Virus record (IMG/VR): IMGVR_UViG_3300034104_001007
Location: 739-64,738 of that record
Reading direction: 5' to 3' (one strand)
Source of the DNA: a virus
Taxonomy: Duplodnaviria; Caudoviricetes
DNA length: 64,000 bases
Made by a program: the position numbers and the translations under genes. The notes beneath the pieces are model-generated. The model made no database searches. It saw nothing but the letters and a program-made list of their open reading frames with translations, and was not told the origin of the DNA. Below are positions 9,502 to 39,935 of the stretch, in pieces (positions within the stretch are counted from its first letter, which is position 1; the number at the start of each line of letters is the position of its first letter).

Positions 9502-12500
9502 ATGCAACCAGTAGAAATTCCTGGAGTCGGTACTGTTCACTTTCCAGATAATATGTCCGATGCTGATATTGGGCGTGTAATCGAAAAGCAAATTATTCCG
9601 CAACATCAAGCTGCTCAAAAAGAGCATGAAAAGAAAACCGGGTTTGTTGCAGCTACTAAGGCTGGTTTTTATAGTTCATTAGGCGCAGCTGAACGGGCTA
9701 TTGGCGAAGCAACTGGTAGCAATAAGCTCAAACAATTAGCTAAAGAAAATGAGCTAAAAGCCCAAACTACATTTGAGCCAACAACCGAAGAAGATGTAGC
9801 TAATGCCCAAGGCGTGATGTCAACTGCGGCCAAATGGTTACGCAAAAACATAGCTGAGCCCGGTGGTGGTATCGTCGGTGGTTATGGTATACCTATTGCT
9901 GCAGCCCCTATTGCAGCTGCTATTGCCCCTGAAGCTGTTGGTGGCGCTGCATTAGCAGGATTAGCCGGTGAAGAATTATTAGCTGCTACTGCAGCACGGG
10001 CTGCTGCAAACGAGGCCCGTAAACGTTTAGTTGGTGCAGCTGCATCATCCACTATCGCAGCCCCTGCCGAGATGGGTTATAACATCCAAGCCCAAGAACA
10101 AGCACATCCAAACGAAGCAATTAATTTAACTGCCGCAGCCCTATCAGCTATTCCCCAAGCTGCGTTAGTTGGTTTTGGTATGCCCGGAACAAGCTACATT
10201 AATAAATTAGTGCCACAACTGGCGCCGATTGCAGAAAAGACACTGGTTCCAAAAGTTCTATCTGGTGAGCTTACGCGCGAAGAAGCCGCAGCCCAGCTAG
10301 CTGGTAAACTCCCACAATATCTAAGAGCCATGGCTGCGAATACGGCTGCTGGTACTGGCATGATGGTTGGTACTGAGACTATCCGCCGTGCGCAAGCTGG
10401 TCAAGACATGATGAGCTTAGGTGAAGTAGGTGAGGCAGCAAAAACAGCAGGTCTATTATCCCCATTCTTTGCAGCTATGCATGGTTCAGACCGTGGTGTG
10501 GCAGAAGGAAAACTAACCGCAGCATCCGAGCAGCGTGCAGCACAACTGCGCCAAGAACAAGATGCGATTGATATAGCGGAACAACGAGCTGCTGACTTAG
10601 AAGGGTTGCGCCAGTTGGATGTGACCTATGCAAAAGTCTACGAAGAGCTTGGTGCAAGGAAAGAACAGACTGCCAGCTTATTAAAAGAAACTAAGTTAGC
10701 CGAACGCATCGGTAAATCAATTGAAGACCATCCTGATATTCAAGCGTTAAATACCCTTGAAGGTACTAAAGCATTCCTTAAAGATTTAAAAGCTAATAAG
10801 AACTATACTGAAGAAGAGAAGCAAGCACTACGCCCACAACTCCAACAGTACATGCAGAAGTTCAAACAAAAAGACACTTCCTATAACAAACTAAATGAAG
10901 AGCAACAAAAATACGTAGGTCAGATTGAAGCGCTTGAAGACTTGCGTGAGATTGGTGTACCTACTACAGCTAAGTTATTAGATGTGCCACTTGAAGAATT
11001 ACAAGCAATGCGTCAGACAGTTGATGAGAAAGCCGCGGACAGCTCCACACCTAAACGCGACATCAACAAGCTTGACCACATGGCAACACTAATTGCTGAT
11101 GCTATCGCAAATCATCCTACGACTGTAAACGCGGCTAAAGCCGCTCAACGCATTGCCGATGAAGCTGATTTTAATCGTGTACTTGAAAGAAAACATGCGG
11201 AAGAAGCGGCGTTAACCAAAGCACAAATCGCTGAAAATGAGCAACGAATCAAGTTAGCTTCATTGAAAACACCTGAGTTACGTAAAGCATACTTAGAAGA
11301 CCAAGCCCGCCAAGAAGCCGCAAGAACTAAAGAAATCCCTGCAGAGCCCAAGCTTACCGCTGAACAAAAAATGGCGCAGTTGGAAACTACACTGCCAGAA
11401 GGCATCAATCGCGAAGATTTTAGAGCGCAACAGCTAGCTGAAGAAGCACGATATAAAGCAGAACAGCAACAACTTGAAGCCGATAAGTTCTATTTGGAAC
11501 GCCAAAAACCGCCAAGAAATGAAGTGGTTAAACCAATTGAGGAGCCTGTAAATGAGCCGACTATCAACGATGTCAAAGGACAAGGAAACCTCTTCACCCC
11601 AAGAACAGGAAAACCCACAGCCGAAGCCATGCGTGGTAATGAAAGTGGACCAGTCGGTGGTGTCGCTGAGCGACCAAGAAGTGAGTCAGGCGTGGAAGTG
11701 CCTGCAGGACAACCAGCTGCCGTTGTCCCCAAAACTGGAAGAGCTGGAGCAGGAGCACTGGGAGATGTTGCTGGAGTACCTGTTAGAAACGCAGGACGAG
11801 ATAAAGGAAATGTGGCTGCAGAAAAGGTTACATTAAAAGAAGCTATTGCAAATCGCATGAACGATATCTTTGGTATAGCCAGAGAGATGCATAAAAATGA
11901 TGTTGTACTTCCTGAAGAACTATCCGATATGCTTCACGAGTTAAGGGCTAACCCACCTAAAGCAGCAGAGTTTGCTGATTGGGCTGCCAATGTAGAAGCT
12001 CGCGTTAAAGAAGCTAAAGCATATATTAAAAGTACTACAAAAGAATCGGTTAAAAAATCCATTGAAAAAGATACAGATGTACAGAAAAAAGCGGCTGAAG
12101 TACATACACTAAAAAAATTAGATGCTGATTCAGAACAAGCAATAAAAGACCTTCAAGATGCTGTCTATGGTCCTGAAGGTATTATGGAATCAAAAGGCAA
12201 ACGTAAAGGCGAGCGCGCACCTAAAGAAGCTAAAGAGCCTACGACCGTTGATGCGATGGAGCAAACAATTAAAGATTGGTTTAATCCAGTATGGTTGGCT
12301 CGCGCGCTTAAGAATGGCTCAGTGCGTATTTCGGAATCTATTGCTAATACAGACTTACCTGAAAAAACTAAAGCCGAATTTGATAAGAGTAAGGCTCTAT
12401 ACTTTGGTCGTGACGGTTCAATCTACTTCTTCACAGACAACATTCCTAAAGGAAATGAGCTAGGGGTTATCTTACATGAGATTGGTGAGCATAAAGGTCT

Positions 12501-15500
12501 TGATAACTTAATAGGAAAAGACCGTGTAACAATGATGTCAAACCGTGTTCGTGATATGGCTACTGGTAAAGGTGGTAAGTTAGACGTCATTATTGCTAAG
12601 AAAGCTTTAAAACGCATTGAGGGTATGGAGGGTGAGAAGGCTAATAAAGAACTAATTGCATACTTCGCTGAGATTGCTGTCAATGAACATAAGATTATTC
12701 CGGGCGGTAAAACTGAAGAACCATCCAAGCTAACTAAGACTTGGATTACAAACCTATGGAACTCTATCAACAAAGCGCTAGAGAAACTCCACCTGAATAT
12801 TAAAGACTTCAGTGCACAAGATTTGGTTGATGTAGTGCATGGTGCAGCCCGTTTAGAAATGGGTCGTGAAGGTGAGATGGGTCCGCGTAATCAGAAGTTT
12901 GATTCACAGTCTAAACTATCCGAAGCTGAAGAAGCCGCAATGAAGGCCAAGGGGTACACTGTATTTAAGACCCCACCAAAAGAAACCTTTGCTCAGTCCA
13001 TGAAAAACTATGCTAATGCCGACACAGGTAAATTGCGTGGGATGTTGGATACTATCGGCAACAAGATGGTTGGTCCTTTGTTCTCAGCACACCGCAAGGC
13101 CAACGCATACTACGGACCTGAAAGTTTCTACACCAAGACTACTAACAAGATTCGCGGCACGATGTTAATGCAGCATACCCTGAACTCAATGAACTTTATC
13201 ATTCAGGCTATGAAAGAAGGTTATGTTCGTATAGACAATAAAGGTTTCTTTGATGTAGCCATTGATAAGGTTAACAACATTCCTCAGCTAGCGGTTAAAT
13301 GGAAAGCTATCGATAACGCTATGAAAGCCAAAGGCATGTCTGACGGTATGGTTGAACAAGCTAAAAAGACTATGGCTTACGCTGACCGTTATAAAGAACT
13401 TAAAGATAAGAACATCAAAACACCAGCTGAATTTACTGATGCGTCATACAAATGGGGTAAAGAACTTCAGAGAGAGTATGCTGCGGAGTTTAAAGAGTGG
13501 CGTGATATGTACAACGTGATTCGTAAAAATAACCGCGAAACGCTTATTAAATCAGGTTTGAAAACTGCTAAAGAAGCAGACGAATGGTTAGACCGTGCAG
13601 AGTACTTGCCTTTATATCGTATCACAGAGAGCGAGGGTATGGACGCGGTATTCATGAACAACTTAACTGCCGCTGTACGCGAACAAAAATTGGGATTTAA
13701 AACAGAAGAATTTGATGTTGGCGACCCAATGGAGAACATTGTTAAGAATCAAATGTGGTTAGGTCAACGGATGATGCGCAACCATACTGCATTACGTTTA
13801 GCTGAAGAGTTTAGTGAGGTTGGTCTTGGTCGTTGGGTTAAAGGCGGTCAAGCTAATGGCAAGAATGTATTCTCCGTTCTTAAAGACGGTGTGGTTGAGC
13901 ACTTTCAAGTAGATAACCCTAACGATGCGGCAGTCTTTATCTCTGCTCCAGTATTCCAAAGTGGTGCACTAAACATAGCTCGTGCTGTTACCGGTACATT
14001 ACGCCGTGGTGTTACTATTACTCCATCGTTTGCGTACCGTCAGATGTGGGCCGATGCTGAGCGTACATGGATGCAGTCAGGTGGTCAACATAGCTTTGCA
14101 AAAACAGTAGCGTCATCTATTAGCCATCAAGGTAAGAACTTATTAAATGATTCTGAGAAAGCTAAAGAGCTAGCTCGTCACGGTATTGTTGGTCAAGTGG
14201 ATATTCAAGAAGGTTTTGACCGCATGGTTCAGCATTTGATGGGTACGCACAATGACACATGGCTAGGTAAAGCAGAGTCTGTACTTGAGCGCGGTGAGCG
14301 CATAGCCCGAAACAGTGACTTATCAGCTCGTGCTACTGTGTATGATTCAGTGGTTGCGCAGGGTATGAAAGAAGGTCGCACGGATTTAGACGTGCTTAGA
14401 AAAGAAGCGGCGCTTCGTGCACAGATGATGATTAACTTTAATCACAAAGGTACTTCTGCGTTTGCTCGTATGATGATGTCTTCAGTACCGTTTATTAACG
14501 CGCGTATTCAATCTGACTGGCGTTTAGTAGATGCATTGAAGGGTAACATCCCGGGTATTACAAAAGAACAAGCACGTAAAATGCTTGCAATGAAGGTAGG
14601 TAAGTTCGCCACATTTACCGCTGTATATGCGATGGCCCGTAGCGGTGACGATGATTATGAAAATGCAAATGATGAAGTCCGCAATCGTAACTTCCTAATC
14701 AATGCTGGTGGTGTACCATTAAAAATACCTGTCGCACCTGAGTACTTAGCACTTAAGGCAGCATCTGAACATACCTATAGGTTGTTAACAGACCAAGAGT
14801 TTGAGGATGGTGAGAAAGCGCGTAAAGCGATTGGTGCTGGATTACGTAACATGCTAATCACTCCAACAGACATGATGCCTACAATCGTGACGCCTATGAT
14901 AGAGAACATAACTAATTACTCGTTCTTTAATGACCGCGCGTTGGTAAGTCCTACACTACAAAACTTGCCAGCCAATGAGCAGTATGTTGAAGGTCAATCA
15001 TCTGAAGCCGCTAAGTATATAAGTAATCTCGGTATGGATATGTTTGGCGATTCATTCAGCCCAATTAAGATTGACAACGTACTCCGTGGCACCCTTGGTA
15101 CTGTGGGTCAAGATGCTATGTTCTTAACTAACTGGATTGCAGGTAGTGTATCAGGTGAAGAGCGCCCCGACGTTAAGTTAAATCAAATCCCTGAGCTTGG
15201 CGCGGCATTCTATGATACCGAAGGTAGCCAACGTAAAAACGATTACTATGATTTACGTAATAAAATAATGCCAATCCATCAAGCACTATTGAAGTATCGT
15301 AGTGAAGGGGATTATGAAAGAGCAAGAGAGTATCAAAAAGAGCATGCGGCTGAACTGCGCCTTGTTCCACAACTTAATGCGATTAACAATCAACTTGAGA
15401 TTACTCGTAAAGCTAAACATCGTATCATGAGCCCAACTAGTACATTGACTGGTGCAGAGAAACGCGAAGCGTTGGATAAGATTGCTGAGAGAGAAAGAAA

Positions 15501-15552
15501 TCTAATTAACAATCGTATCGTTAAAATGAAAGACCAATTAGAAGAGGAATAA
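9502..15552 (+). CDS. giant internal virion protein (polyvalent type: zincin-like HExxxH domain plus LPD38-like C-terminus)
   Basis: 2016 aa; LGVILHEIGEHKGL; C-terminal LKIPVAPE...ENITNYSFF...SPIKIDNVLRGTLG resembling LPD38. Confidence 0.7.
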   Translation: MQPVEIPGVGTVHFPDNMSDADIGRVIEKQIIPQHQAAQKEHEKKTGFVAATKAGFYSSLGAAERAIGEATGSNKLKQLAKENELKAQTTFEPTTEEDVANAQGVMSTAAKWLRKNIAEPGGGIVGGYGIPIAAAPIAAAIAPEAVGGAALAGLAGEELLAATAARAAANEARKRLVGAAASSTIAAPAEMGYNIQAQEQAHPNEAINLTAAALSAIPQAALVGFGMPGTSYINKLVPQLAPIAEKTLVPKVLSGELTREEAAAQLAGKLPQYLRAMAANTAAGTGMMVGTETIRRAQAGQDMMSLGEVGEAAKTAGLLSPFFAAMHGSDRGVAEGKLTAASEQRAAQLRQEQDAIDIAEQRAADLEGLRQLDVTYAKVYEELGARKEQTASLLKETKLAERIGKSIEDHPDIQALNTLEGTKAFLKDLKANKNYTEEEKQALRPQLQQYMQKFKQKDTSYNKLNEEQQKYVGQIEALEDLREIGVPTTAKLLDVPLEELQAMRQTVDEKAADSSTPKRDINKLDHMATLIADAIANHPTTVNAAKAAQRIADEADFNRVLERKHAEEAALTKAQIAENEQRIKLASLKTPELRKAYLEDQARQEAARTKEIPAEPKLTAEQKMAQLETTLPEGINREDFRAQQLAEEARYKAEQQQLEADKFYLERQKPPRNEVVKPIEEPVNEPTINDVKGQGNLFTPRTGKPTAEAMRGNESGPVGGVAERPRSESGVEVPAGQPAAVVPKTGRAGAGALGDVAGVPVRNAGRDKGNVAAEKVTLKEAIANRMNDIFGIAREMHKNDVVLPEELSDMLHELRANPPKAAEFADWAANVEARVKEAKAYIKSTTKESVKKSIEKDTDVQKKAAEVHTLKKLDADSEQAIKDLQDAVYGPEGIMESKGKRKGERAPKEAKEPTTVDAMEQTIKDWFNPVWLARALKNGSVRISESIANTDLPEKTKAEFDKSKALYFGRDGSIYFFTDNIPKGNELGVILHEIGEHKGLDNLIGKDRVTMMSNRVRDMATGKGGKLDVIIAKKALKRIEGMEGEKANKELIAYFAEIAVNEHKIIPGGKTEEPSKLTKTWITNLWNSINKALEKLHLNIKDFSAQDLVDVVHGAARLEMGREGEMGPRNQKFDSQSKLSEAEEAAMKAKGYTVFKTPPKETFAQSMKNYANADTGKLRGMLDTIGNKMVGPLFSAHRKANAYYGPESFYTKTTNKIRGTMLMQHTLNSMNFIIQAMKEGYVRIDNKGFFDVAIDKVNNIPQLAVKWKAIDNAMKAKGMSDGMVEQAKKTMAYADRYKELKDKNIKTPAEFTDASYKWGKELQREYAAEFKEWRDMYNVIRKNNRETLIKSGLKTAKEADEWLDRAEYLPLYRITESEGMDAVFMNNLTAAVREQKLGFKTEEFDVGDPMENIVKNQMWLGQRMMRNHTALRLAEEFSEVGLGRWVKGGQANGKNVFSVLKDGVVEHFQVDNPNDAAVFISAPVFQSGALNIARAVTGTLRRGVTITPSFAYRQMWADAERTWMQSGGQHSFAKTVASSISHQGKNLLNDSEKAKELARHGIVGQVDIQEGFDRMVQHLMGTHNDTWLGKAESVLERGERIARNSDLSARATVYDSVVAQGMKEGRTDLDVLRKEAALRAQMMINFNHKGTSAFARMMMSSVPFINARIQSDWRLVDALKGNIPGITKEQARKMLAMKVGKFATFTAVYAMARSGDDDYENANDEVRNRNFLINAGGVPLKIPVAPEYLALKAASEHTYRLLTDQEFEDGEKARKAIGAGLRNMLITPTDMMPTIVTPMIENITNYSFFNDRALVSPTLQNLPANEQYVEGQSSEAAKYISNLGMDMFGDSFSPIKIDNVLRGTLGTVGQDAMFLTNWIAGSVSGEERPDVKLNQIPELGAAFYDTEGSQRKNDYYDLRNKIMPIHQALLKYRSEGDYERAREYQKEHAAELRLVPQLNAINNQLEITRKAKHRIMSPTSTLTGAEKREALDKIAERERNLINNRIVKMKDQLEEE

Positions 15553-32246: not shown

Positions 32247-33485
32247 TTAGATATCCTCCATTCTTACAGTCTTGCCATGCTCGGCTACGATATCGGTAGT
32301 CATAACCCACATCGCGGGGATAGAAAATACAGGGAAGCTGTCTACATAACCATCGGATAACAACACCACGCACTCATGGTTGAGGTTCTTATTTAAGGAC
32401 AACCAATCCGCTACGCATTGTGGTCTTGTGCCACCACCACCTACTGGCTTAAGATAACTCTCGATATTATCTAATTGGTCTTGCTCGAACGATTGCACAC
32501 TGCATACTTCCATATCCCACCATAGGATATCAATTCCAGCAGGCTTGAGCTCCGCGCATAACTTTTTAATCTCGCCCATGAACCTAGCCAACTGTTCACC
32601 CCAAATAGACCCCGATGTATCGGGTGCAATCGCTAGTCTGCCCGTGGTATTTGATATCGAGCCGGGGAAATAACCTACATCAAACATACGGCGATTGAGT
32701 TTAGACCAACTGCTTTCGTCGCGCCCCGCCATACGCTCTTTAATAAACTCGGCTAACTCACTTGCCCAATCAACCTTGCCCTCGAGTAGGCCATCTATCA
32801 TGCGTGGCTTATCCCCACCCATCTTACCCGCTAGCTGTCTACCTTGCCGTATCGCTATCTCGATGTCTTTCTCTATCGTGGCCTTGTCATCGTCTGACAA
32901 ACTATCCCAGTCATGTTCATCCATGCCACCGCCTTGAGGGTAACCCTCCGTAATTCGATTGCCTTGACCATCCCTATCCACCACTCGACACTGGTTCTGA
33001 CTGTTTTCACCGTCGCCCTCACCCGCATCGTCGCCCTCGCTATCTTGAGGTTGTTGCTTATACTGCTCGAGGTCTTTGAATATCTCAACGACAGTCATCT
33101 TGTCATACTTAGGATTGTATAACCCACCATCAATCATCTTAATGAAGCCTGTCTTATTGTCCTGTTTGATTAACTCATTGTTAATCCAGTAATCACAAGC
33201 CGCATTAGCGCGCTGACCATCTAGTGTGTGTAACTGTTTGTATATGAACATATGCATAGCTGCTTTGTGCATTGTCTCATGTAAGATTAGAAAGCGTAGT
33301 TCCTCGTCGGATAACGGCTCACAAAACTCACGGCCATACCACACATTCTTACCATCGGTGCAAGCGGTCGGCATGGTCTCTGATACTTCCCATTTACCAA
33401 AACACATCACACCACCCAATGCCATCCATGCCTTGTTACCCATGATGGCAATGTTTTGTTTCTTAATTCGTTTTACTAAGTCCAT
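32247..33485 (-). CDS. DUF2201-type metallopeptidase plus vWA domain protein
   Basis: TACTDG, LHETMH (HExxH), NAACDYWIN; MIDAS-like DTSGS; GGGGT; LSDGY; start set at ATG 33485 after AAGGAG. Confidence 0.85.
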   Translation of the reverse strand: MDLVKRIKKQNIAIMGNKAWMALGGVMCFGKWEVSETMPTACTDGKNVWYGREFCEPLSDEELRFLILHETMHKAAMHMFIYKQLHTLDGQRANAACDYWINNELIKQDNKTGFIKMIDGGLYNPKYDKMTVVEIFKDLEQYKQQPQDSEGDDAGEGDGENSQNQCRVVDRDGQGNRITEGYPQGGGMDEHDWDSLSDDDKATIEKDIEIAIRQGRQLAGKMGGDKPRMIDGLLEGKVDWASELAEFIKERMAGRDESSWSKLNRRMFDVGYFPGSISNTTGRLAIAPDTSGSIWGEQLARFMGEIKKLCAELKPAGIDILWWDMEVCSVQSFEQDQLDNIESYLKPVGGGGTRPQCVADWLSLNKNLNHECVVLLSDGYVDSFPVFSIPAMWVMTTDIVAEHGKTVRMEDI

Positions 33486-33523
33486 CTCTATCTCCTTAAT
33501 TAAGGTTCTTAAATAAGAACCGA

Positions 33524-34384
33524 TTACCAACCTAACTTATCAGACAACTCGTCTACCTTTGCTTTCACTGCCTTGCGCACACCATCACTCTCGCGCACAT
33601 CTTTCATATCCACACCATGCAAGGCTTCCTCTAACTCTTTACGAGCCCAGTCAAGGTCTTGGTTATGTGTTACATTCATAACAGAAAGCAGGCTACATAA
33701 CTCAAGCGCGTTATCAAGCACGCTGTCCCTAAGAACTTTCTTTTGTCCATCGTCGTTATCGCTGAACCTGTCGCTGATATGCTTAGTTACTTTATACAAC
33801 CTAGTCCATAAGTCCTCCATCGCTTGGGTTGTGCGCTCACTGTATACACGCTCATACTCGGCCTCTAACTCTGTGGCTATCTCGTGGCCTACATCTACGC
33901 GGAAATCACCACGCTCGGGTAATGGTGTAAAGAAAAAGGTAAAGCCAAACCGCCTAGCTATATCATTAACATCGGGGTATTCTGTGCGGTCAAACATCGT
34001 GCCCATCTTAAAGGCTTGCGCTGATACTAGGTTGGGATACATTGCAACGAAGTCATTGGATAACTTATTGAACTCGGTCGTCATGTCGTTGAGCCAATCC
34101 TTTACCGCTATGAAGTTACGGATATCTACTAGGCGCTGACCGCTATCAGACCACGGCAATGTCTTTGTGTAGAACTCCACACGCGCTGATGCTACCCACT
34201 TCTGTATCTTTTCTAACTGCTCAACACCCGCAAGTAAACTCTTATTGAACCTACCCGCGCCATCATCTGCGCCCTTTGCGGTCGTTACTTCTTTTGATAC
34301 TTTCTTATCCAGTTTACGAAAGCTAGGCACACGAATGTTTAGCTCTACTAGAATTGCTTGGTTGCTTAGGTTAATTTTGTCCAT
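33524..34384 (-). CDS. conserved early protein (DUF3150-like)
   Basis: TLPWSDSGQRL...FDRTEYP...GDFRVD; typical neighbour of AAA/vWA genes. Confidence 0.65.
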   Translation of the reverse strand: MDKINLSNQAILVELNIRVPSFRKLDKKVSKEVTTAKGADDGAGRFNKSLLAGVEQLEKIQKWVASARVEFYTKTLPWSDSGQRLVDIRNFIAVKDWLNDMTTEFNKLSNDFVAMYPNLVSAQAFKMGTMFDRTEYPDVNDIARRFGFTFFFTPLPERGDFRVDVGHEIATELEAEYERVYSERTTQAMEDLWTRLYKVTKHISDRFSDNDDGQKKVLRDSVLDNALELCSLLSVMNVTHNQDLDWARKELEEALHGVDMKDVRESDGVRKAVKAKVDELSDKLGW

Positions 34385-34552
34385 CTCTATTCTCCATTGT
34401 TAATACGATTTATCATTTGATTGTAACTATCCTCATTACTATTCCAGTCAGTATGGTCTAGCAAGTCGGGCTCTAATTCATACAACACATCAAGCAAGCG
34501 CATAAATACATCAAGTCGTGCTATGCGTTCTTTCTTACTCATGATGTTCTCC

Positions 34553-34957
34553 TTAGTAATCACAATAAATGTTAGTGTCTGTTGATAAAAAATACTGCAC
34601 ATCCTCACCACCACTTTCGTTCTCGATGTCGCCCGCCTCCTCACCGATACGAACGAACTCCCAGTTAAGGCCTGCCTCCTCGGCATCATGTATGAACTTA
34701 TCCCACGCTTGAACATCGGGGTAACTGTCATACCACTTCCAGTCATCCCCTTGTAAGTCTAGGATTTTAAATACTTGCTCGGTGCTACCATTCGCGAGGG
34801 GTTGACCATAGGTATATTTCTTTTCAGTAAACTTAAGGCTTTCACCGAACCCATCCCATATGATGTTATTGATTAACTTCTGCCCCGCTATGAACGCATC
34901 AAACAACTCGGCATCGGTGCCATACACGCAACTTCTTACTTGACTTCTGTAACCCAT
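34553..34957 (-). CDS. conserved hypothetical protein
   Basis: MGYRSQV...WKWYDSYPDV...FVRIGEE.DIE motif; AGGAG RBS. Confidence 0.75.
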   Translation of the reverse strand: MGYRSQVRSCVYGTDAELFDAFIAGQKLINNIIWDGFGESLKFTEKKYTYGQPLANGSTEQVFKILDLQGDDWKWYDSYPDVQAWDKFIHDAEEAGLNWEFVRIGEEAGDIENESGGEDVQYFLSTDTNIYCDY

Positions 34958-34958
34958 A

Positions 34959-35144
34959 CTATTCTCCTAGTTTAAATACATCGTAACCAATATCACTTTC
35001 AAGGTTGGGCACTATCTTTAGGTTTGTTTCCAATGCCACATTGAAATCATCGAGGAACTTACGCGCCTCTGTATACCTAACCTTGTCATTGCCATATCGC
35101 ATTTTCCACATGGCTTCGAAGTCCTCCTTGTTAGCGATACTCAT
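34959..35144 (-). CDS. hypothetical protein
   Basis: Coupled to the AAA ATPase stop. Confidence 0.55.
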   Translation of the reverse strand: MSIANKEDFEAMWKMRYGNDKVRYTEARKFLDDFNVALETNLKIVPNLESDIGYDVFKLGE

Positions 35145-36214
35145 TATACGAACTCCTTAGTGAATGTTTGAACCCAGTCGCGCATACCTTTCGAACGCAT
35201 TGCAACTGTCGGCTTGGATTTAAAGATTAGTCTACCTGTTACCGCTTGTATCTCGGCCTCAAGTCTAGTCATATACTTTGTTGTGGCATCCGCATTGTCG
35301 TCAGCTAAACCCGATGCAAGCCGTGTCGATAATAACAACTGACTTGCTAGGCTATCGGGGATACGCGCATTGTTGGGGTCGGAATAAATAGACTTGCGGG
35401 TAGGTAAGCTGTCGGCCAATTCTACTGTCGCCCATAACTCTGCAGTAGCGGGTGCACCTATCGCACCACATATATGAGCCATCGCTTGTTCCTTATTTAA
35501 GAACCCTGCTTCCATCTTGTCTAGCGTATTACTTGCAAACCAAAACGAACGATTGGAACAGAACTGCTTGGTGTTAGTCTTGGGATTGAATATATATTTG
35601 TTTGTGGCTAACTGCTCTGCATCAAGGTCGCGGTATGACTGGCACACCTCGGGGTTCTCGCCTATGAAATAGATTAGCGTTCCGTTCATACCATATGTTG
35701 TGCCGAACTGAACCACCTCGGAATGGCTAGGCTTACGCACTTCCAATGTAGATACGCGGTTATTCATGTGAGCGGGGAATGTATCGCCAACACCATCTGT
35801 TGATAAGTTACTGGTAGAAAACACCACCGAACCCTTAGGGATTGGCATGCTTGATACTGTGCGCTCTAATAAGAACCTAGTAACCATTGGCTTTGCCACG
35901 CCTTGCACCTTGCCTATCTCGTCAATCATGTATAGCTGTGGCTTATCGCTATCTAAATGCCATTCATCCGCGAATGCTTTCTTTGTCTTGCCATCTACTA
36001 CGCTAGGCATATAGAAGTCGGGGAAGTCTAGCAATGGTGCATCGATATACACGCACTGGTCTTGCCCCCAACCTAGCTTGGCTAGGATGTCATTACGCAA
36101 ACTAGACTTACCAATTCCCGGCTCGCCTACTAAGATTGTTGTTGTGTGGTCGCCTGTTGCCGCGATGATTGCACTAGCATCGGCTAGTGATACTACATTA
36201 CTGATACCTTCCAT
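35144..36214 (-). CDS. AAA+ ATPase (MoxR-like)
   Basis: Walker A GEPGIGKS, Walker B MIDE, sensor-1 STSN, Arg finger NNR. Confidence 0.88.
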   Translation of the reverse strand: MEGISNVVSLADASAIIAATGDHTTTILVGEPGIGKSSLRNDILAKLGWGQDQCVYIDAPLLDFPDFYMPSVVDGKTKKAFADEWHLDSDKPQLYMIDEIGKVQGVAKPMVTRFLLERTVSSMPIPKGSVVFSTSNLSTDGVGDTFPAHMNNRVSTLEVRKPSHSEVVQFGTTYGMNGTLIYFIGENPEVCQSYRDLDAEQLATNKYIFNPKTNTKQFCSNRSFWFASNTLDKMEAGFLNKEQAMAHICGAIGAPATAELWATVELADSLPTRKSIYSDPNNARIPDSLASQLLLSTRLASGLADDNADATTKYMTRLEAEIQAVTGRLIFKSKPTVAMRSKGMRDWVQTFTKEFV

Positions 36215-36216
36215 TT

Positions 36217-36444
36217 CTATTCTCCTTGGTTAAAGTCTGATGGTGTTACTACTGGTTGTGTTAATGCTTTCTGCAATCTATCTATTAGTTCTTGCATTTC
36301 CTCGGGTGTGTTGCCTAACAAGAACGGCTCACCATAGCCTGTTGGCTTGCCTTTCTTATCATAGTGAACCTCGACAAATCGGTATGTTGAAAAGTCGGGG
36401 TCGTCGTTCGCTTGAAAAAGCACTCTGTGGTTCCATGTAAACAT
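36217..36444 (-). CDS. small conserved phage protein
   Basis: WNHRV...EVHYD..G.P motif; AGGAG RBS. Confidence 0.65.
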   Translation of the reverse strand: MFTWNHRVLFQANDDPDFSTYRFVEVHYDKKGKPTGYGEPFLLGNTPEEMQELIDRLQKALTQPVVTPSDFNQGE

Positions 36445-37010
36445 TGCTATTCTCCTATCGTTTAATTGATTTAGTGTTATGTGGTTTAGCTCTTGTAAGT
36501 CCTACAAGTCGGGACACCACCATTCCCTCCTGCGCTATGTATTGAGGTTCCTTGCTACACATGCCAGTTCAAGTAGCTCGTTCGCGTGTGGTTTATACCC
36601 ACTCCAGACCTCTCTGTCCGATGGACTACGCACCATCGTTTGCGTTACTTCAATTCCTCCTCGTATGCTTGTATTACCAACTGCGCGAACTTGTCCAACA
36701 CCTCAATGGCATTGTTTTCTGTCCAGTATGTTGAGTTATCAGTTACATCAATAACCCCCGCTTGTATTGCCAACTGTTCTATGTTCATTCTGTTTCCTCC
36801 TCGTCATCGTCGTTTACTTCCTCGGTTTTGTAGCTAACACCTACTAAGTATTTCTCAACCATGTCTTTTATCATCTCAGTCGCTTGTTCCTCTGACTGAG
36901 CATACCATGTAGCCCTAACTCTAATCATTTGCTATCCTCCTAAGTTAAAGTAAACAACTACTACTGCTATCACTACACATACCCAAAAAACTACTACATC
37001 TAACTGGTCA

Positions 37011-37235
37011 TTAGTCATTTTTTACCTCCTCGATATCTGTTATTTCAAAAAAATTACCATCGTAAATATCTTTTAGATAAAACCCTTCATCGCTAGCTAC
37101 TGTCTCTGCGTCAGCTTCATCGTATGCCCATACACGCTTGGAATAATAGACTTTTTCTGATGCCAGCACTTCATACTGTTTTTTGCCTAGCAGTTTCTGA
37201 ACTGCATGTTCTGTTGTTTGGTCGCTCATAGCCAC
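37011..37235 (-). CDS. hypothetical protein
   Basis: Packed early ORF. Confidence 0.55.
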   Translation of the reverse strand: MAMSDQTTEHAVQKLLGKKQYEVLASEKVYYSKRVWAYDEADAETVASDEGFYLKDIYDGNFFEITDIEEVKND

Positions 37236-37483
37236 ATCACCTTATAGTTTAAGTCCTCATATTTTCGTAATGCAACGGCAGACTTTAGCCAGCATGCACC
37301 ACCACCGCGCGAGGGTGGGAACTCAACGATACCAAGGTATGGCTTAAGTGCGTGGCGACCTGTATGGCGCTTTGTTTTTATCGTGATTGTGTCGAGTGAT
37401 GCTGTGCTTGTTTTTCCAAGGTTCTTATTTAAGAACTCGGGGTTGTTGGCATATGCCGTGAGTAATGCTGATTTCAAATCCAT
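37226..37483 (-). CDS. first ORF behind the structured early leader (hypothetical)
   Basis: ACAGGAGAATAGCCATG start at 37483; contains one palindrome copy (FLNKN). Confidence 0.6.
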   Translation of the reverse strand: MDLKSALLTAYANNPEFLNKNLGKTSTASLDTITIKTKRHTGRHALKPYLGIVEFPPSRGGGACWLKSAVALRKYEDLNYKVMWL

Positions 37484-37499
37484 GGCTATTCTCCTGTTA

Positions 37500-38016
37500 A
37501 GTAAATAATACAAAGGTGCTATGTTATACAGACTAGAAAAACTAATCTAATCCATATAATAAGGCACTTTGTCCCCGCGTTTAGGCTTGTGCATTTTCTA
37601 GGGATTGTTACTACACAATAGTCCTATACTTACACGCGTTCGTGCCATGCGCGGGGTGTGCTTATCGGTTACCGAAAATATCTAAGTGCTTGAGCGATGT
37701 CGTGATACAGGTTTTTGTCTTATGGGGTAGCGCGCCTGCATAGTAGCGCGGGTTTATTATTAGTAGATGCTGTCGTGAATACTGACCGTCTCACCCTTTT
37801 GAGTTCATCCCAGTCCGCACGATTTACTTGATAGGCTTTGCTTACTGCCCGTTACTATATCTACTATGACTACTTACCTGTATGCGGTTCATCCGCACCA
37901 TGTAGGCTGTCGCCTACACTTAAGTTCTTAAATAAGAACCTTTCGGTAACCATCCAAACTGTTAAAGAGCGGTGGGCGTGTGTTCTGCCCTTACTTACTA
38001 ACTTACTAACTTACAA
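37500..38016 (-). ncRNA. candidate long structured RNA / 5' leader
   Basis: Five nested helices (37667-77/37941-51; 37683-88/37917-22; 37705-12/37876-83; 37761-68/37859-66; 37773-77/37818-22) plus hairpins; no credible ORF. Confidence 0.65.
37960..37990 (-). promoter_or_regulatory. boxA antitermination element preceded by a boxB-like hairpin
   Basis: CGCTCTTTAACA on the - strand (37960-37971), preceded by the hairpin GGGC-agaacacac-GCCC. Confidence 0.75.
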
Positions 38017-38022
38017 AACACC

Positions 38023-38051
38023 ATTGTAGCACACTTCGGAACGAAAGTCAA
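38023..38051 (-). promoter_or_regulatory. strong sigma70 early promoter
   Basis: TTGACT-17nt-TACAAT with extended -10 TG. Confidence 0.8.
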
Positions 38052-38086
38052 GGCCCTTCCACGCTATTACTCGATAGTAGCCGTTC

Positions 38087-38368
38087 TTACTTAAAGTTGC
38101 TCCAGTAATTGTTCGTGTATATGAGGGGTAATCCTTGCTTGCGTCGCTCTATATTGTCATGCCTTTGCACATAGGGTTTGTGTTCGCCTTTCATATACAT
38201 CCATATGATTGATGCCGTGGTGTAGTTATAGGTCTTGCCGTCTATCGTTACATGCACATAGCGTGATGTGATGGGTTTGCGTGATTTGTGCTTACCAAGT
38301 TTGCGAAGTATGCCTTGATAGGGTAGGTATTCGAACATGGCTAGAACTTGTCTTTGAGTTAAACGCAT
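38087..38368 (-). CDS. degenerate HNH-associated / hypothetical protein
   Basis: AGGAG RBS; resembles the N-terminal part of HNH_3 homing nucleases but lacks the catalytic motif. Confidence 0.55.
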   Translation of the reverse strand: MRLTQRQVLAMFEYLPYQGILRKLGKHKSRKPITSRYVHVTIDGKTYNYTTASIIWMYMKGEHKPYVQRHDNIERRKQGLPLIYTNNYWSNFK

Positions 38369-38438
38369 TTGTATCTCCTATTAATTAAATATTACGAGGT
38401 TCTTATTTAAGGACTTTCTACTAAAGTATACATTTTAG

Positions 38439-38913
38439 CGGATAGTTGTATATTTGTGAACGGATAGAAGTATATTTGTGAGAGAAATTTTCACAATATA
38501 AGGGCCTGTATATAAAGAGAAAAATGTGGTAGATGTATATCTGTGAAAAAGTGAATGGATTTTAAAAGTATGAACTGGGCAGAATAAGCAAACAGTCTTT
38601 TTCACAATATAAAAAGCACAAGAAAAATTATTATATTCTTTTATTAAAATATTTAATAACTTACTACAAATGAAGCTACTTTCGGCCATGGGCTTGGGTT
38701 TCAGAGCATTCACAAATTGAAAATGAAACTTTCACATTTTCACAAATATACTATTAGGCCTACGATTATCCGCGTTCGTCTTAAATGTATCCGTAAACTA
38801 CCCGAAACATAACCTTTCACAAATATACTTTTAGCAGTTCTTAAATAAGAACTTCATTTTCCTCTTGACACGAAACGCATAGTATGTATTCGATTGTCTT
38901 AAATGTCTCCGTA
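38439..38913. repeat. AT-rich iteron-like region (TTCACAA(A)TATA repeats), putative replication origin
   Basis: About 7 copies in both orientations; 22-nt-period tandem at 38439-38481; 18-nt direct repeat at 38778 and 38896. Confidence 0.6.
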
Positions 38914-39124
38914 TGTTCCACGATAAGGTTCTTAAATAAGAACTTCGCTATGTTTTGTCGCGTTACGCGCGCGTCTTACGCAGGCTAGCTTTTAGGAACC
39001 AGTGTCCCACTGGCCTTCAATTCTACGCAGTCAGTTCAGCTACGCAAAACCATAAAGCTTAGTTTTGCTCCGCAGCCCCGCCTGCTGAATTGACACTGGT
39101 TCCTGACCCCCAAAAATTAGGGGC

Positions 39125-39149
39125 AAAAAAATACCCCGCTTTCGCGGGG
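39125..39149 (-). terminator. intrinsic terminator
   Basis: CCCCGC-tttc-GCGGGG with an A-run on its left. Confidence 0.65.
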
Positions 39150-39246
39150 CTTGTTGGTTATAAGTTATAAATTGTTTCGTATAATTGTTTTCGCATCATC
39201 TGAAAGCAAGCGTATTGATAAGGCCTAAGTTTTTTCATGGTGTGTT

Positions 39247-39270
39247 AAAAGCCCCTTGCGGGGCTTTTTT
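39247..39270. terminator. bidirectional intrinsic terminator after the first early gene
   Basis: AAAAGCCCC-ttgc-GGGGCTTTTTT. Confidence 0.8.
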
Positions 39271-39284
39271 CCTTAATTAAGAAC

Positions 39285-39935
39285 CTATTTAGTTTCTGTT
39301 TCGGCATCTAACACGATGCCGTCATCTGATGCTAACGCCTTGATTTTGGCCACGCGGTTTTGCGCTTTTTTGTTGTCTTTAAATTCTAGTGAATTTAAAT
39401 ACATTGCCTTAACCAATTTTTCGTGAATTTCAGCTGGTGTTGGCTCTTCTTTTTCGCCGTTGATAGCGGCGCGCGCACCTTTCAGAATGTAGCTAATGTT
39501 TGGCTCGGTCTCGCGTTTTGCCGTTTTGCCTTTTGCATTCCAAAAAACTAAGGCATCAAATTTGTGATTTGTTTCGGCCTCGCGGATTTTGGCAATGTTG
39601 TTAAACATTTGATAAAGCGCGCCATAGCCTGCTGTTTTGGCTGTTGGGATTTTTACGCGGTCTTTTACGGCCGCGGCCTTGTTGCTAGCCTTTACGCTTT
39701 CCTGAAAGCCTTTGAAAGTAGGCAATTCCGCACCGCTAAACAAGGCCATAATGGCGTTATGTTCTACTGTTGCGCCTACCTTGCCCGCTTGCTGGGCTTC
39801 GTTATAATCAAACGCTTTTGTTTCAACAGCGCGCTGGGTTGTTTCGTTTACATAATACATTTGTTGCACAGCCTTAGTGGCTGTTGTGTTGCGAGGTGCG
39901 CGAGGTGCGCGGGTTTTAACTGATTGTGTAGTCAT
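39285..39935 (-). CDS. first early gene, hypothetical protein
   Basis: 216 aa with own promoter, GGAG RBS and terminator. Confidence 0.75.
   Translation of the reverse strand: MTTQSVKTRAPRAPRNTTATKAVQQMYYVNETTQRAVETKAFDYNEAQQAGKVGATVEHNAIMALFSGAELPTFKGFQESVKASNKAAAVKDRVKIPTAKTAGYGALYQMFNNIAKIREAETNHKFDALVFWNAKGKTAKRETEPNISYILKGARAAINGEKEEPTPAEIHEKLVKAMYLNSLEFKDNKKAQNRVAKIKALASDDGIVLDAETETK

What the first reader, a model, noticed from the sequence alone, without database searches (positions are those of the whole stretch)
37500..38051. ~530-nt deeply nested structured RNA leader with boxA at the head of the early operon
Seen: a near-consensus leftward promoter (TTGACT-17-TACAAT, 38023-38051), then GTAAGTTA tandem repeats, a small hairpin and an exact boxA (CGCTCTTTAACA). 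Then ~290 nt closed by a perfect 11-bp helix (37667-77/37941-51) with four further strictly nested helices (6, 8, 8 and 5 bp) and side hairpins (37731-50, 37883-97, 37902-17, palindrome 37924-39). Two more stem domains follow (CCCCGCG/CGCGGGG 37573/37650; 37510-37572) before the first RBS at ~37490. There is no credible ORF in this stretch, although the genome is otherwise tightly packed. Known: boxA recruits NusB/NusE in rRNA operons and lambda nut sites. Inference: a large phage ncRNA or an RNA-based antiterminator/processing scaffold for the ~22-kb leftward operon. I do not recognise it as tmRNA, RNase P RNA, tRNA or an intron, and no N-like gene is recognisable.
Basis: partly seen in the sequence, partly recalled or inferred. 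Interest (0 to 1): 0.85.

Follow-up and report, generated by a model that had tools for sequence, protein, structure and literature searches.

The report
Structured boxA leader RNA in phage
A group of uncultured freshwater phages starts its early gene block with a long, conserved, intricately folded untranslated RNA that carries the same short signal bacteria use to keep ribosomal RNA transcription from stopping early; no RNA family library matches it.

Summary
On the minus strand a near-consensus sigma-70 promoter (38051-38023, with TG) is followed by about 533 nt without a conserved ORF, then an RBS and ATG at 37483. It folds better than all 100 shuffles (z -4.43). Homologous leaders of 305-652 nt occur in 19 other phage or metagenome contigs in six lineages. 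All complete copies keep the promoter. All keep a boxA: 7 of 10 distinct sequences match GYTCTTTAANA exactly and 3 differ by one base. All keep a long-range helix starting right after boxA, an ~84-nt 3' stem domain and a long terminal hairpin. In the 3' domain 13 of 24 pairs show compensatory changes. A ~260-nt central domain is optional. Rfam gives no match.

My best reading (about 0.5) is a cis-acting leader like an rRNA operon or lambda nut leader. BoxA would recruit host Nus factors to protect the long untranslated RNA and the 22-kb operon from Rho and to help it fold, with added regulatory or processing modules. A processed stable phage RNA is not excluded.

The "palindrome hairpin" is one of 10 copies of a lineage-specific 16-bp inverted repeat in the early region, probably a protein-binding site. 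No function was tested.

The parts
38023..38051 (-). Sigma-70-type promoter TTGACT-17-TACAAT with extended -10 TG; transcription start inferred near 38016
   Evidence: The same TTGAC[AT]-17-TA[CTG]AAT is found in 17 of 18 homologous sequences; the 18th is cut at its 5' end.
37991..38014 (-). C-free GTAAGT/AGTA repeats with stop codons in all frames; present in lineages A-E, absent in F; function unknown
37974..37990 (-). Small hairpin (GGGC/GCCC) just 5' of boxA. A hairpin of variable sequence and size sits here in the relatives. Its position is like boxB of rRNA operon leaders.
   Evidence: hairpin-then-boxA order in rrn leaders from PMC13753749 and PMC10250234
37960..37970 (-). boxA GCTCTTTAACA, an exact match to the gammaproteobacterial consensus GYTCTTTAANA
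   Evidence: 7 of 10 distinct leaders exact, 3 of 10 one mismatch; conserved island 0.93 against flanks 0.43 and 0.58
37941..37959 (-). 5' arm of the long-range closing helix, starting directly after boxA
   Evidence: a helix between this position and the stretch before the 3' domain exists in all lineages with different sequences
37923..37940 (-). Hairpin formed by the 16-bp inverted repeat GTTCTTAnnTAAGAAC, one of 10 copies of CTTAWWTAAG in 32388-39281
   Evidence: 4 of 7 pairs compensated between lineages
37678..37922 (-). Optional central domain. It holds hairpins 37919-37900 and 37898-37882, the long-range helix 37866-59/37768-61, and hairpin 37750-37731 with a conserved 10-nt loop.
   Evidence: absent in L075, L004/L080 and L056
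37660..37677 (-). 3' arm of the closing helix, followed by the conserved A/C-rich linker (GATAAGCACA type)
37573..37656 (-). Conserved 3' stem domain P1-P5 (7+3+5+4+5 bp) with invariant unpaired motifs (ATGGYA, GTGTARTARC, CCTAARC)
37510..37572 (-). Long terminal hairpin (lower stem, internal loop, 13-15-bp upper stem, variable tip) next to the RBS
   Evidence: 13 consensus pairs, 8 compensated
37481..37495 (-). AGGAG (37495-91) and ATG (37483-81) of the first ORF (85 aa, 37226-37483, no family match)

Best explanation
The region is the cis-acting 5' leader of the phage's early/replication operon, built like an rRNA-operon leader or a lambda nut leader. Host sigma-70 RNA polymerase starts at about 38016. 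The nascent RNA then shows a hairpin followed by a single-stranded boxA. I infer that boxA binds host NusB/NusE and assembles the Nus complex on the polymerase. That would do two things. First, it would make elongation resistant to Rho through 305-652 nt of untranslated RNA and on into the 22-kb operon. Second, by holding boxA at the polymerase, it would help the long-range helix that begins right after boxA to close, as proposed for the 16S leader-trailer helix. Inside and after that helix sit further modules: a hairpin or DNA site that is a copy of the phage's multi-copy, lineage-specific inverted repeat (a site for a phage-specific protein); an optional ~260-nt domain; a conserved 84-nt stem domain; and a long irregular hairpin next to the RBS. 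I take the last hairpin to be a processing or stability signal of the RNase III kind. Shown here: the anatomy, conservation, covariation and strand. Inferred: Nus binding, Rho protection, processing and protein binding.
For: Leader homologues were found in all 7 close ATPase relatives and in 0 of 41 distant ones. More came from pattern scans, and 19 of 19 family loci carry exactly one 3' domain. The promoter is kept in 17 of 17 complete copies. BoxA sits 17-126 nt after the inferred start, is exact to GYTCTTTAANA in 7 of 10 distinct leaders, and is far more conserved than its flanks. L056 carries the full E. coli consensus quoted in PMC13753749. A hairpin precedes boxA and the 5' arm of a long-range helix follows within 0-8 nt; that helix exists in every lineage with different sequence, dG -9.8 to -27.8. 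[quoted passage not shown] For the 3' domain, 89.8% of cells pair against 28-41% for slid controls, and 13 of 24 pairs are compensated. RNAalifold finds the same fold on its own. In the terminal hairpin 8 of 13 pairs are compensated. G-U cells number 38 on the sense strand against 7 that would form on the antisense strand. There is no conserved ORF. C-rich, G-poor 60-nt windows occur in the leaders, C 0.23-0.33 and G 0.08-0.20. One 151-nt contig of a freshwater metatranscriptome is identical to 37801-37951.
Against: No function was tested, and the host is unknown, so it is not known that the host's NusB/E read this boxA. Three of 10 distinct leaders have one mismatch to the consensus. In the window's MFE, boxA is partly paired with the 5' repeats. 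Intrinsic terminator-like sites in the operon are not enriched, 20 found against 16.2 expected, so any need for antitermination rests on Rho alone, and the C-over-G bias is modest. Nothing explains why a plain antitermination leader needs an 84-nt domain with invariant loops or a 260-nt optional domain. Nus-bound boxA can also repress, as in suhB (PMC5725501). The single RNA-library contig may be DNA carry-over.
Confidence: 0.5

Rival explanations
1. The leader is the precursor of a stable, trans-acting phage RNA. Like an rRNA operon, it is transcribed under boxA/Nus control. The closing helix and the terminal hairpin are processing stems that release a folded RNA (central domain and/or 3' domain), which acts on a host or phage factor.
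For: The architecture is boxA, then the 5' arm of a long-range helix enclosing a folded domain, as for 16S rRNA. Invariant loop motifs in the 3' domain and in the central hairpin suggest tertiary or protein contacts. Optional domains inserted in a helix are typical of large non-coding RNAs (recalled). The only RNA-library contig found lies inside the central domain.
Against: No terminator or defined 3' end lies before the RBS. The RNA is always directly joined to the first cistron. The enclosed part shrinks to one or two hairpins in lineages E and F. No read-level evidence of processing exists.
Confidence: 0.2
2. The conserved 3' stem domain plus the terminal hairpin form a put-like element. 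The nascent RNA itself would bind RNA polymerase and make it terminator-resistant, without a phage protein.
For: Two adjacent irregular stem-loops with conserved bulges lie a few hundred nt downstream of an early promoter, ahead of a long operon. HK022 putR lies ~270 nt downstream of PR, and put RNAs are two stem-loops with bulges (PMC9378689, passages).
Against: The size is about 147 nt (84 + 63) against ~70 nt for put. A conserved boxA is present, and put does not need one.
Confidence: 0.1
3. The 3' domain is a sensor (riboswitch or protein-binding operator) that sets translation or stability of the first cistron or the operon.
For: It has conserved internal loops, sits next to the RBS, and its stems covary.
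Against: No Rfam riboswitch matches. No conserved alternative pairing with the SD was seen, and the local fold near the SD differs between lineages. The first gene differs between lineages, so autoregulation by its product is unlikely.
Confidence: 0.1
4. The conservation reflects DNA functions (an operator cluster or replication origin at the divergent control region), and the RNA folds are incidental.
For: The inverted repeat in the leader is multi-copy, orientation-free and lineage-specific. GC skew turns at about 38-42 kb. An invariant 13-bp inverted repeat lies upstream.
Against: Compensatory changes keep helices whose sequences differ completely between lineages. G-U pairs are strongly strand-biased, 38 against 7. 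Slid-partner controls fall to 28-41%.
Confidence: 0.05

Closest known systems
rRNA operon leader (boxB-boxA-boxC, rrn antitermination complex, leader-trailer helix)
   Same: A strong sigma-70 promoter, a small hairpin, then a boxA of the E. coli type, then within a few nt the 5' arm of a long-range helix enclosing a folded RNA. All of it is untranslated.
   Different: It heads a protein-coding phage operon. The enclosed RNA is 40-290 nt, not 1.5 kb. No boxC was identified. It has an extra 3' stem domain and terminal hairpin, and it carries a phage-specific inverted repeat.
Lambda nut site and N leader (boxA, boxB, then a large hairpin before the N start; the leader layout is recalled, nut components from PMC10250234)
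   Same: An early promoter, boxA, a lineage-specific hairpin 18-25 nt downstream (48 nt in L008), a long hairpin, then the RBS of the first early gene of a long operon.
   Different: No N-like protein is recognisable. The hairpin is a 16-bp perfect inverted repeat present 10 times, also outside any boxA context and inside ORFs. The leader is 2-3 times longer with conserved multi-helix domains.
HK022 put RNA (PMC9378689)
   Same: A cis-acting folded nascent RNA downstream of an early promoter; two irregular stem-loops.
   Different: About twice the size, it comes with a boxA, and no sequence relation could be tested.
T7 early leader
   Same: A long untranslated stretch between strong host-type promoters and the first early gene: promoters at 498, 626 and 750, gene 0.3 at 925. 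From recall, irregular hairpins with an internal loop serve as RNase III sites in T7 early RNA.
   Different: No homology. The record examined annotates no boxA or RNase III site in that stretch. T7 has no known conserved multi-domain fold there (recalled).
Large ornate phage-associated RNAs in Rfam (such as GOLLD and ROOL; names recalled)
   Same: A several-hundred-nt RNA with many covarying helices encoded by phages.
   Different: No Rfam model matches at gathering score or at E up to 10. This one is a leader fused to an operon with a boxA.
Mycobacteriophage stoperators (PMC9283540, PMC6550527; abstracts in a search listing) and T4-type PeSL cassettes (PMC2839356; passages read). These are compared with the inverted repeat only.
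   Same: A short, multi-copy motif that is identical within a genome, differs between lineages, and is often in short intergenic gaps of the early region.
   Different: It is symmetric, whereas stoperators are asymmetric by the title of PMC9283540. It is confined to ~7 kb. It has no attached promoter, unlike PeSLs. Its binding protein is unknown.

Membership tests
boxA-dependent (Nus factor) antitermination leader, rrn or nut type | BoxA sequence matching the consensus (GYTCTTTAANA for gammaproteobacteria; E. coli UGCUCUUUAACA) | tested here: met
   The window 11-mer is exact. 7 of 10 distinct leaders are exact and 3 of 10 have one mismatch.
boxA-dependent (Nus factor) antitermination leader, rrn or nut type | BoxA lies in the transcript shortly downstream of the promoter and upstream of the region to be protected | tested here: met
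   17-126 nt from the inferred start in all 10 distinct leaders. The start itself is inferred from the promoter, not mapped.
boxA-dependent (Nus factor) antitermination leader, rrn or nut type | Adjacent boxB-type hairpin | tested here: inconclusive
   A hairpin of variable sequence precedes boxA, and the inverted-repeat hairpin follows it at 18-25 nt (48 nt in L008). Neither can be equated with boxB without its binding partner.
boxA-dependent (Nus factor) antitermination leader, rrn or nut type | NusB/NusE binding and resistance to Rho or intrinsic terminators | not testable with these tools
   No experiment was possible; the host is unknown.
boxA-dependent (Nus factor) antitermination leader, rrn or nut type | Phage N-like protein (nut type only) | tested here: not met
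   No family match for the small early ORFs in PHROGs or Pfam. This does not exclude an unrecognisable N analogue.
HK022 put RNA | ~70-nt element of two stem-loops that acts without Nus factors or boxA | tested here: not met
   The two stem domains total about 147 nt and always come with a boxA. Put features are from PMC9378689. Sequence likeness was not tested.
Any Rfam 15 family (riboswitches, large ncRNAs, leaders) | Covariance-model score at or near the gathering threshold | tested here: not met
   0 hits at gathering in the whole window. At E up to 10 in 37400-38100 there was one chance-level hit, 9.6 bits against a threshold of 70.
RNase III processing hairpin | About two turns of mostly paired RNA with an internal loop, between a leader and a cistron | tested here: met
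   Terminal hairpin: lower stem 8-9 bp, an internal loop, and an upper stem of 13-15 bp in lineages A, B, D, E and F. Lineage C folds differently.
RNase III processing hairpin | Cleavage by RNase III | not testable with these tools
   No read-level RNA data; contigs cannot show ends.
Leader peptide or small ORF | A conserved reading frame with a start and RBS | tested here: not met
   The ATG inside the invariant ATGGYA opens 16-20 codons in some lineages. It stops at codon 3 in L003 and L006 and is in another frame in L005. No SD precedes it.

The most novel reading that the evidence does not exclude
These phages carry a miniature rRNA-operon-like unit: a strong promoter, hairpin, boxA and a processing helix that together make, fold and release a new class of stable structured phage RNA (the 84-nt 3' domain, with or without the 260-nt central domain). 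That RNA would act in trans on the host early in infection. The same transcript would continue, Nus-modified, into the replication operon.
Probability: 0.2. Interest if true: 0.8.

Novelty: new variant of a known kind. Interest (0 to 1): 0.62.

Why it matters
Outside lambdoid phages and rRNA operons, boxA-dependent control has been documented for only a few targets (suhB and others, PMC5725501). Here a non-lambdoid, uncultured freshwater phage group appears to have taken the rRNA-type signal and joined it to 300-650 nt of covarying RNA structure that no library describes. If the reading is right, it gives a compact natural system for studying how Nus-modified polymerase protects and folds long untranslated RNA. 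It also adds a new structured RNA family with a modular, optional domain. The lineage-specific inverted repeat scattered through the early region, which even overrides protein sequence inside ORFs, points to a specificity system of the immunity or nut type that could be worked out by comparing lineages.

Tried and rejected
A blastn of the leader against 50,697 phage records found no match.

The first downstream ORF used as a probe in viral contigs gave 15 pattern hits, none a relative.

The pattern scans also returned non-members: 3 of 11 viral stretches (L055, L058, L059), 19 of 31 metagenome stretches and 2 of 2 genome stretches. These matched neither the leader HMM nor model R1 (best E 0.33).

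The 41 distant ATPase loci have no 3' domain.

The three nearest deposited phages by terminase (about 51-53% identity; DSL-LC04, HTVC027P, 023Pt_psg01) have no R1 hit. Among them there is only one consensus boxA string, at control level.

The T7 record was checked for an annotated boxA or RNase III site in its early leader; none is annotated.

A second viral scan with a central-domain pattern added only one more lineage-B contig, L100.

The 216-aa upstream ORF was tried as a candidate regulator. It has no Pfam or PHROG family. Its AlphaFold model (pLDDT 74, helical) has no PDB fold match at E up to 0.001.

The ATGGCA mini-ORF was rejected as a leader peptide.

Intrinsic terminators in the operon are not enriched.

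The duplex search for L075 used overlapping segments and its output is an artefact. By eye L075 has a 4-bp closure.

The MFE pairing of the 5' repeats with the pre-SD stretch was not pursued, because lineage F lacks the repeats.

A possible pairing of the P5 loop with the UUAUUAU stretch of the terminal hairpin was considered by eye only and is not claimed.

RNA evidence: the one run offered held 5% of the sampled words. Laid out, it gave one 151-nt identical contig at 37801-37951 and one 128-nt piece about 91% alike at 36801-36928. The rest of the 3 kb had no cover, which shows nothing.

Host identity was not obtained. The idea that the boxA type points to beta- or gammaproteobacteria rests on recall. 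Supplementary tables of PMC5725501 (boxA variants) could not be seen and may bear on how damaging the one-mismatch variants are.
Full report
WHAT IS THERE. The window is nearly all of a 64,738-bp IMG/VR virus record. It has a leftward early/replication block, roughly 16.2-38.4 kb. That block encodes a MoxR-like ATPase, DUF3150, a DUF2201 metallopeptidase/VWA protein, family A DNA polymerase, a PD-(D/E)XK nuclease, an SNF2 helicase and a DUF927 protein. A rightward structural block starts with the terminase at 40.9 kb.

These are the TTGACT-17-TACAAT promoter with an extended -10 TG (38051-38023), the GTAAGT-type repeats (38014-37991) and a small hairpin. They also include CGCTCTTTAACA (37971-37960), the perfect 11-bp helix 37951-41/37677-67, the side hairpins, the CCCCGCG/CGCGGGG helix (37656-50/37579-73) and the 37572-37510 hairpin. 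AGGAG (37495-91) and ATG (37483) follow.

The 528-nt RNA folds at -159.4 kcal/mol. The mean for 100 dinucleotide shuffles is -129.3, z = -4.43, and none folds as well. The longest sense ORF in the leader is 27 aa.

IT IS CONSERVED. With the ATPase 1.3 kb downstream as a probe, 48 viral loci were fetched: 7 close (76-81% identity) and 41 distant (30-34%). nhmmer with the window's leader found a homologue at the syntenic place in 7 of 7 close loci and in none of the 41 distant ones.

A pattern made from three invariant unpaired motifs of the 3' part was then scanned. It found one further viral contig (8 of 11 stretches were members). It found 12 of 31 metagenome stretches and 0 of 2 genome stretches. 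A second pattern from the central part added one truncated contig.

A covariance model of the 3' domain (R1) hits exactly once in the window. It also hits once in each of 19 of 19 family loci, one of them cut by a contig end. It hits nothing at E below 0.3 in the 41 distant loci or the 24 pattern-only loci.

The copies fall into six lineages:
- A: the window.
- B: L003, L005, L065, L078, L081, L085, L100.
- C: L006-L009, L068.
- D: L077, L091.
- E: L075.
- F: L004/L080 and L056.

Leader length from the inferred start to the ATG is 305-652 nt.

WHAT IS COMMON TO ALL.
(i) The promoter is kept in 17 of 17 copies that reach that far.
(ii) BoxA is kept. Seven of 10 distinct sequences match GYTCTTTAANA exactly. 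That is the consensus derived for gammaproteobacteria in PMC5725501 (passages read). Three differ at one position. Column identity is 0.93 over the 11-mer against 0.43 in the 30 nt before and 0.58 in the 25 nt after. L056 has the 12-nt E. coli consensus quoted in PMC13753749.
(iii) Directly after boxA comes the 5' arm of a long-range helix. Its 3' arm lies just before the 3' domain. The helix exists in each lineage with unrelated sequence, for example GGTTACCGAAA/TTTCGGTAACC, GGTTTTTGGT/ACCAAAAACC and GTATGCC.CCC/GGG.GGCATAC.
(iv) Inside this helix, 18-25 nt after boxA (48 nt in L008), sits a hairpin made by a 16-bp inverted repeat.
(v) An A/C-rich linker follows the helix.
(vi) An 84-nt stem domain comes next.
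(vii) A long hairpin and then the RBS close the leader.

The ~260-nt central domain that makes the window's leader 'deeply nested' is present in lineages A-D. It is absent from E and F, where one or two hairpins take its place.

COVARIATION.

3' domain, 11 distinct sequences. I proposed five nested helices (7+3+5+4+5 pairs) from the alignment. 89.8% of 255 cells pair. Thirteen of 24 pairs have changes on both sides, in 44 cells. No column shuffle out of 500 reaches these values. Sliding the 3' partners by 1-3 columns drops pairing to 28-41%. RNAalifold, run blind on the same alignment, returns the same helices: 19 pairs, 12 compensated. The homologues were collected through unpaired motifs, not stems, so the stems were free to vary.

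Terminal hairpin, 8 sequences of lineages A, B, D, E and F; lineage C was left out because it folds differently. There are 13 consensus pairs, 8 of them compensated.

Central part, 9 sequences of lineages A-D. RNAalifold gives 41 pairs, 15 compensated. The window's own MFE projected on the alignment pairs in 76.9% of cells, against 35-41% when slid, and 25 of 81 pairs are compensated.
- Well supported: the inverted-repeat hairpin, the UGCG...CGCA hairpin (37898-82), the long-range helix 37866-59/37768-61, and the hairpin 37750-31 with its conserved loop.
- Window-specific or unalignable: the hairpin 37919-00, the 6-bp helix 37881-76/37712-07 and three small inner helices.

G-U pairs number 38 on the sense strand in the two best alignments. 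Only 7 cells would be G-U on the antisense strand. The fold therefore belongs to the leftward transcript.

NOT CODING, NOT A KNOWN RNA. The invariant ATGGYA opens a 16-20-codon frame in some lineages. That frame stops at codon 3 in L003 and L006 and is shifted in L005, and no SD precedes it. No antisense ORF is shared. Rfam 15 gives nothing at gathering score in the whole window. At E up to 10 in the region it gives only a 9.6-bit chance hit. ARAGORN finds no tRNA or tmRNA.

My literature searches were on boxA with Rho and Nus, on processive antitermination in phages, on boxA with CRISPR arrays, on the lambda N leader, and on boxA with phage early promoters or leader RNA. None turned up a description of such a phage leader.

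THE 'PALINDROME HAIRPIN' IS A GENOME-WIDE MOTIF. CTTAWWTAAG occurs 10 times in the window against 0.47 expected, and none of 100 shuffles reaches 10. All copies lie between 32388 and 39281. Eight extend to GTTCTTAnnTAAGAAC or one mismatch from it.

Each lineage has its own outer four base pairs on the constant TTAWWTAA core: GGTG/CACC, CCTC/GAGG, AGTC/GACT, TTCC/GGAA, GGGC/GCCC and GGTC/GACC. Each has 4-9 copies per 7-14-kb locus, or 2-5 in loci shorter than 3.5 kb.

Many copies sit in short gaps between ORFs. Some sit at the same place inside homologous ORFs, about 60 nt into the first ORF and about 710 nt into the ATPase gene, so the encoded residues differ with the lineage. The central two bases point either way with no strand bias. 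Imperfect copies carry non-wobble mismatches on the sense strand.

Identical copies within a genome and different ones between genomes indicate sequence-specific recognition by a lineage-specific factor. I lean towards a dimeric DNA-binding protein (a stoperator-like arrangement) over an RNA hairpin reader (boxB-like), roughly 45:35. Neither is tested, and the candidate 216-aa upstream protein gave no clue.

HOW IT MOST LIKELY WORKS. The order hairpin, boxA, 5' arm of a long-range helix is that of the rRNA leader (boxB, boxA, leader strand of the leader-trailer helix; PMC10250234). For rRNA it has been proposed that Nus factors tether boxA to the elongating polymerase and so promote closure of that helix (PMC4807359). 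The complex also resists Rho (abstracts of PMC4807359 and PMC6614801 in the listing).

A leader of 305-652 untranslated nucleotides with C-rich, G-poor stretches ahead of a 22-kb operon is the kind of RNA Rho would act on (general knowledge). I therefore read boxA as the device that lets the polymerase cross the leader and the operon and fold the leader on the way.

The terminal hairpin has the form of an RNase III signal (recalled from T7 and lambda). The 3' domain, the best conserved and most covarying part, has no assigned role. A direct polymerase-binding (put-like) role or a sensor role remains open. Intrinsic terminators are not enriched in the operon, which limits the antitermination argument to Rho.

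EXPRESSION. The one RNA run offered, a freshwater metatranscriptome held as contigs, contains a 151-nt contig identical to 37801-37951. This is compatible with transcription of the leader but does not prove it.

NOVELTY AND VERDICT. The parts list overlaps known kinds (boxA/Nus leaders, nut sites). The family itself is not in Rfam or in the literature I could search: a 300-650-nt modular, covarying leader in a non-lambdoid phage group. The nearest deposited phages by terminase lack it. I class it as a new variant of a known kind. There is a one-in-five chance that it is a new stable phage RNA made in an rRNA-operon-like way. The family is small (20 contigs, six lineages) and uncultured, which tempers its immediate usefulness.

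Noticed in passing
window 32388-39281 (10 sites: 32388, 33495, 33508, 35492, 37424, 37927, 38402, 38840, 38931, 39272): A multi-copy inverted repeat CTTAWWTAAG / GTTCTTAnnTAAGAAC is confined to the early region: 10 found against 0.47 expected. Every related lineage has its own outer 4 bp on the same TTAWWTAA core, with 2-9 copies per locus.
   Followed up: partly
window 37424-37433 and 35492-35501; L003 4699 and 5711: Copies of the repeat sit at the same positions inside homologous ORFs (first ORF, ATPase) in different lineages, each with the lineage's own sequence. The motif therefore overrides amino-acid conservation there.
   Followed up: partly
window 38985-39160 (- strand): This is a second conserved non-coding element upstream of the leader. 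A terminator hairpin with T7 (39150-39125, stem covaries) is followed by a 13-bp inverted repeat, AGGAACCAGTGTC ... GACACTGGTTCCT. The repeat is identical in 9 of 9 sequences from five lineages and encloses about 85-100 nt. The fold z-score is -4.86. Rfam gives only a sub-threshold hit (26.8 bits against 114).
   Followed up: partly
window 38440-38830 (- strand): An AT-rich stretch has repeated TATAT(T)TGTGAAA / TTCACAAATATAC motifs and several promoter-like sites. The listed 92-aa GTG ORF 38435-38713 is probably not a gene.
   Followed up: no
window 38087-38368 (-): A 93-aa ORF with a weak HNH-endonuclease match (PHROG 99, E 6.5e-5) sits between the upstream control region and the leader promoter. 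It may be a mobile insertion.
   Followed up: no
window 39285-39935 (-): A 216-aa ORF is conserved in relatives (22-43% identity) and is followed by a repeat copy in lineages A, B and F. It has no Pfam or PHROG family. Its helical AlphaFold model (pLDDT 74) has no PDB fold match.
   Followed up: yes
L091 versus L077 (terminal hairpin tip); L008 versus L006 (around the repeat hairpin); L009 versus L006 (central domain): Near-identical leaders differ by clean insertions at helix tips: an A/T-rich tandem repeat in L091, a ~50-nt extra helix in L008 and a ~28-nt insert in L009. The scaffold evidently tolerates insertions at its tips.
   Followed up: no
window 9502-15552 (+): A 2016-aa ORF in the structural block was not examined.
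   Followed up: no
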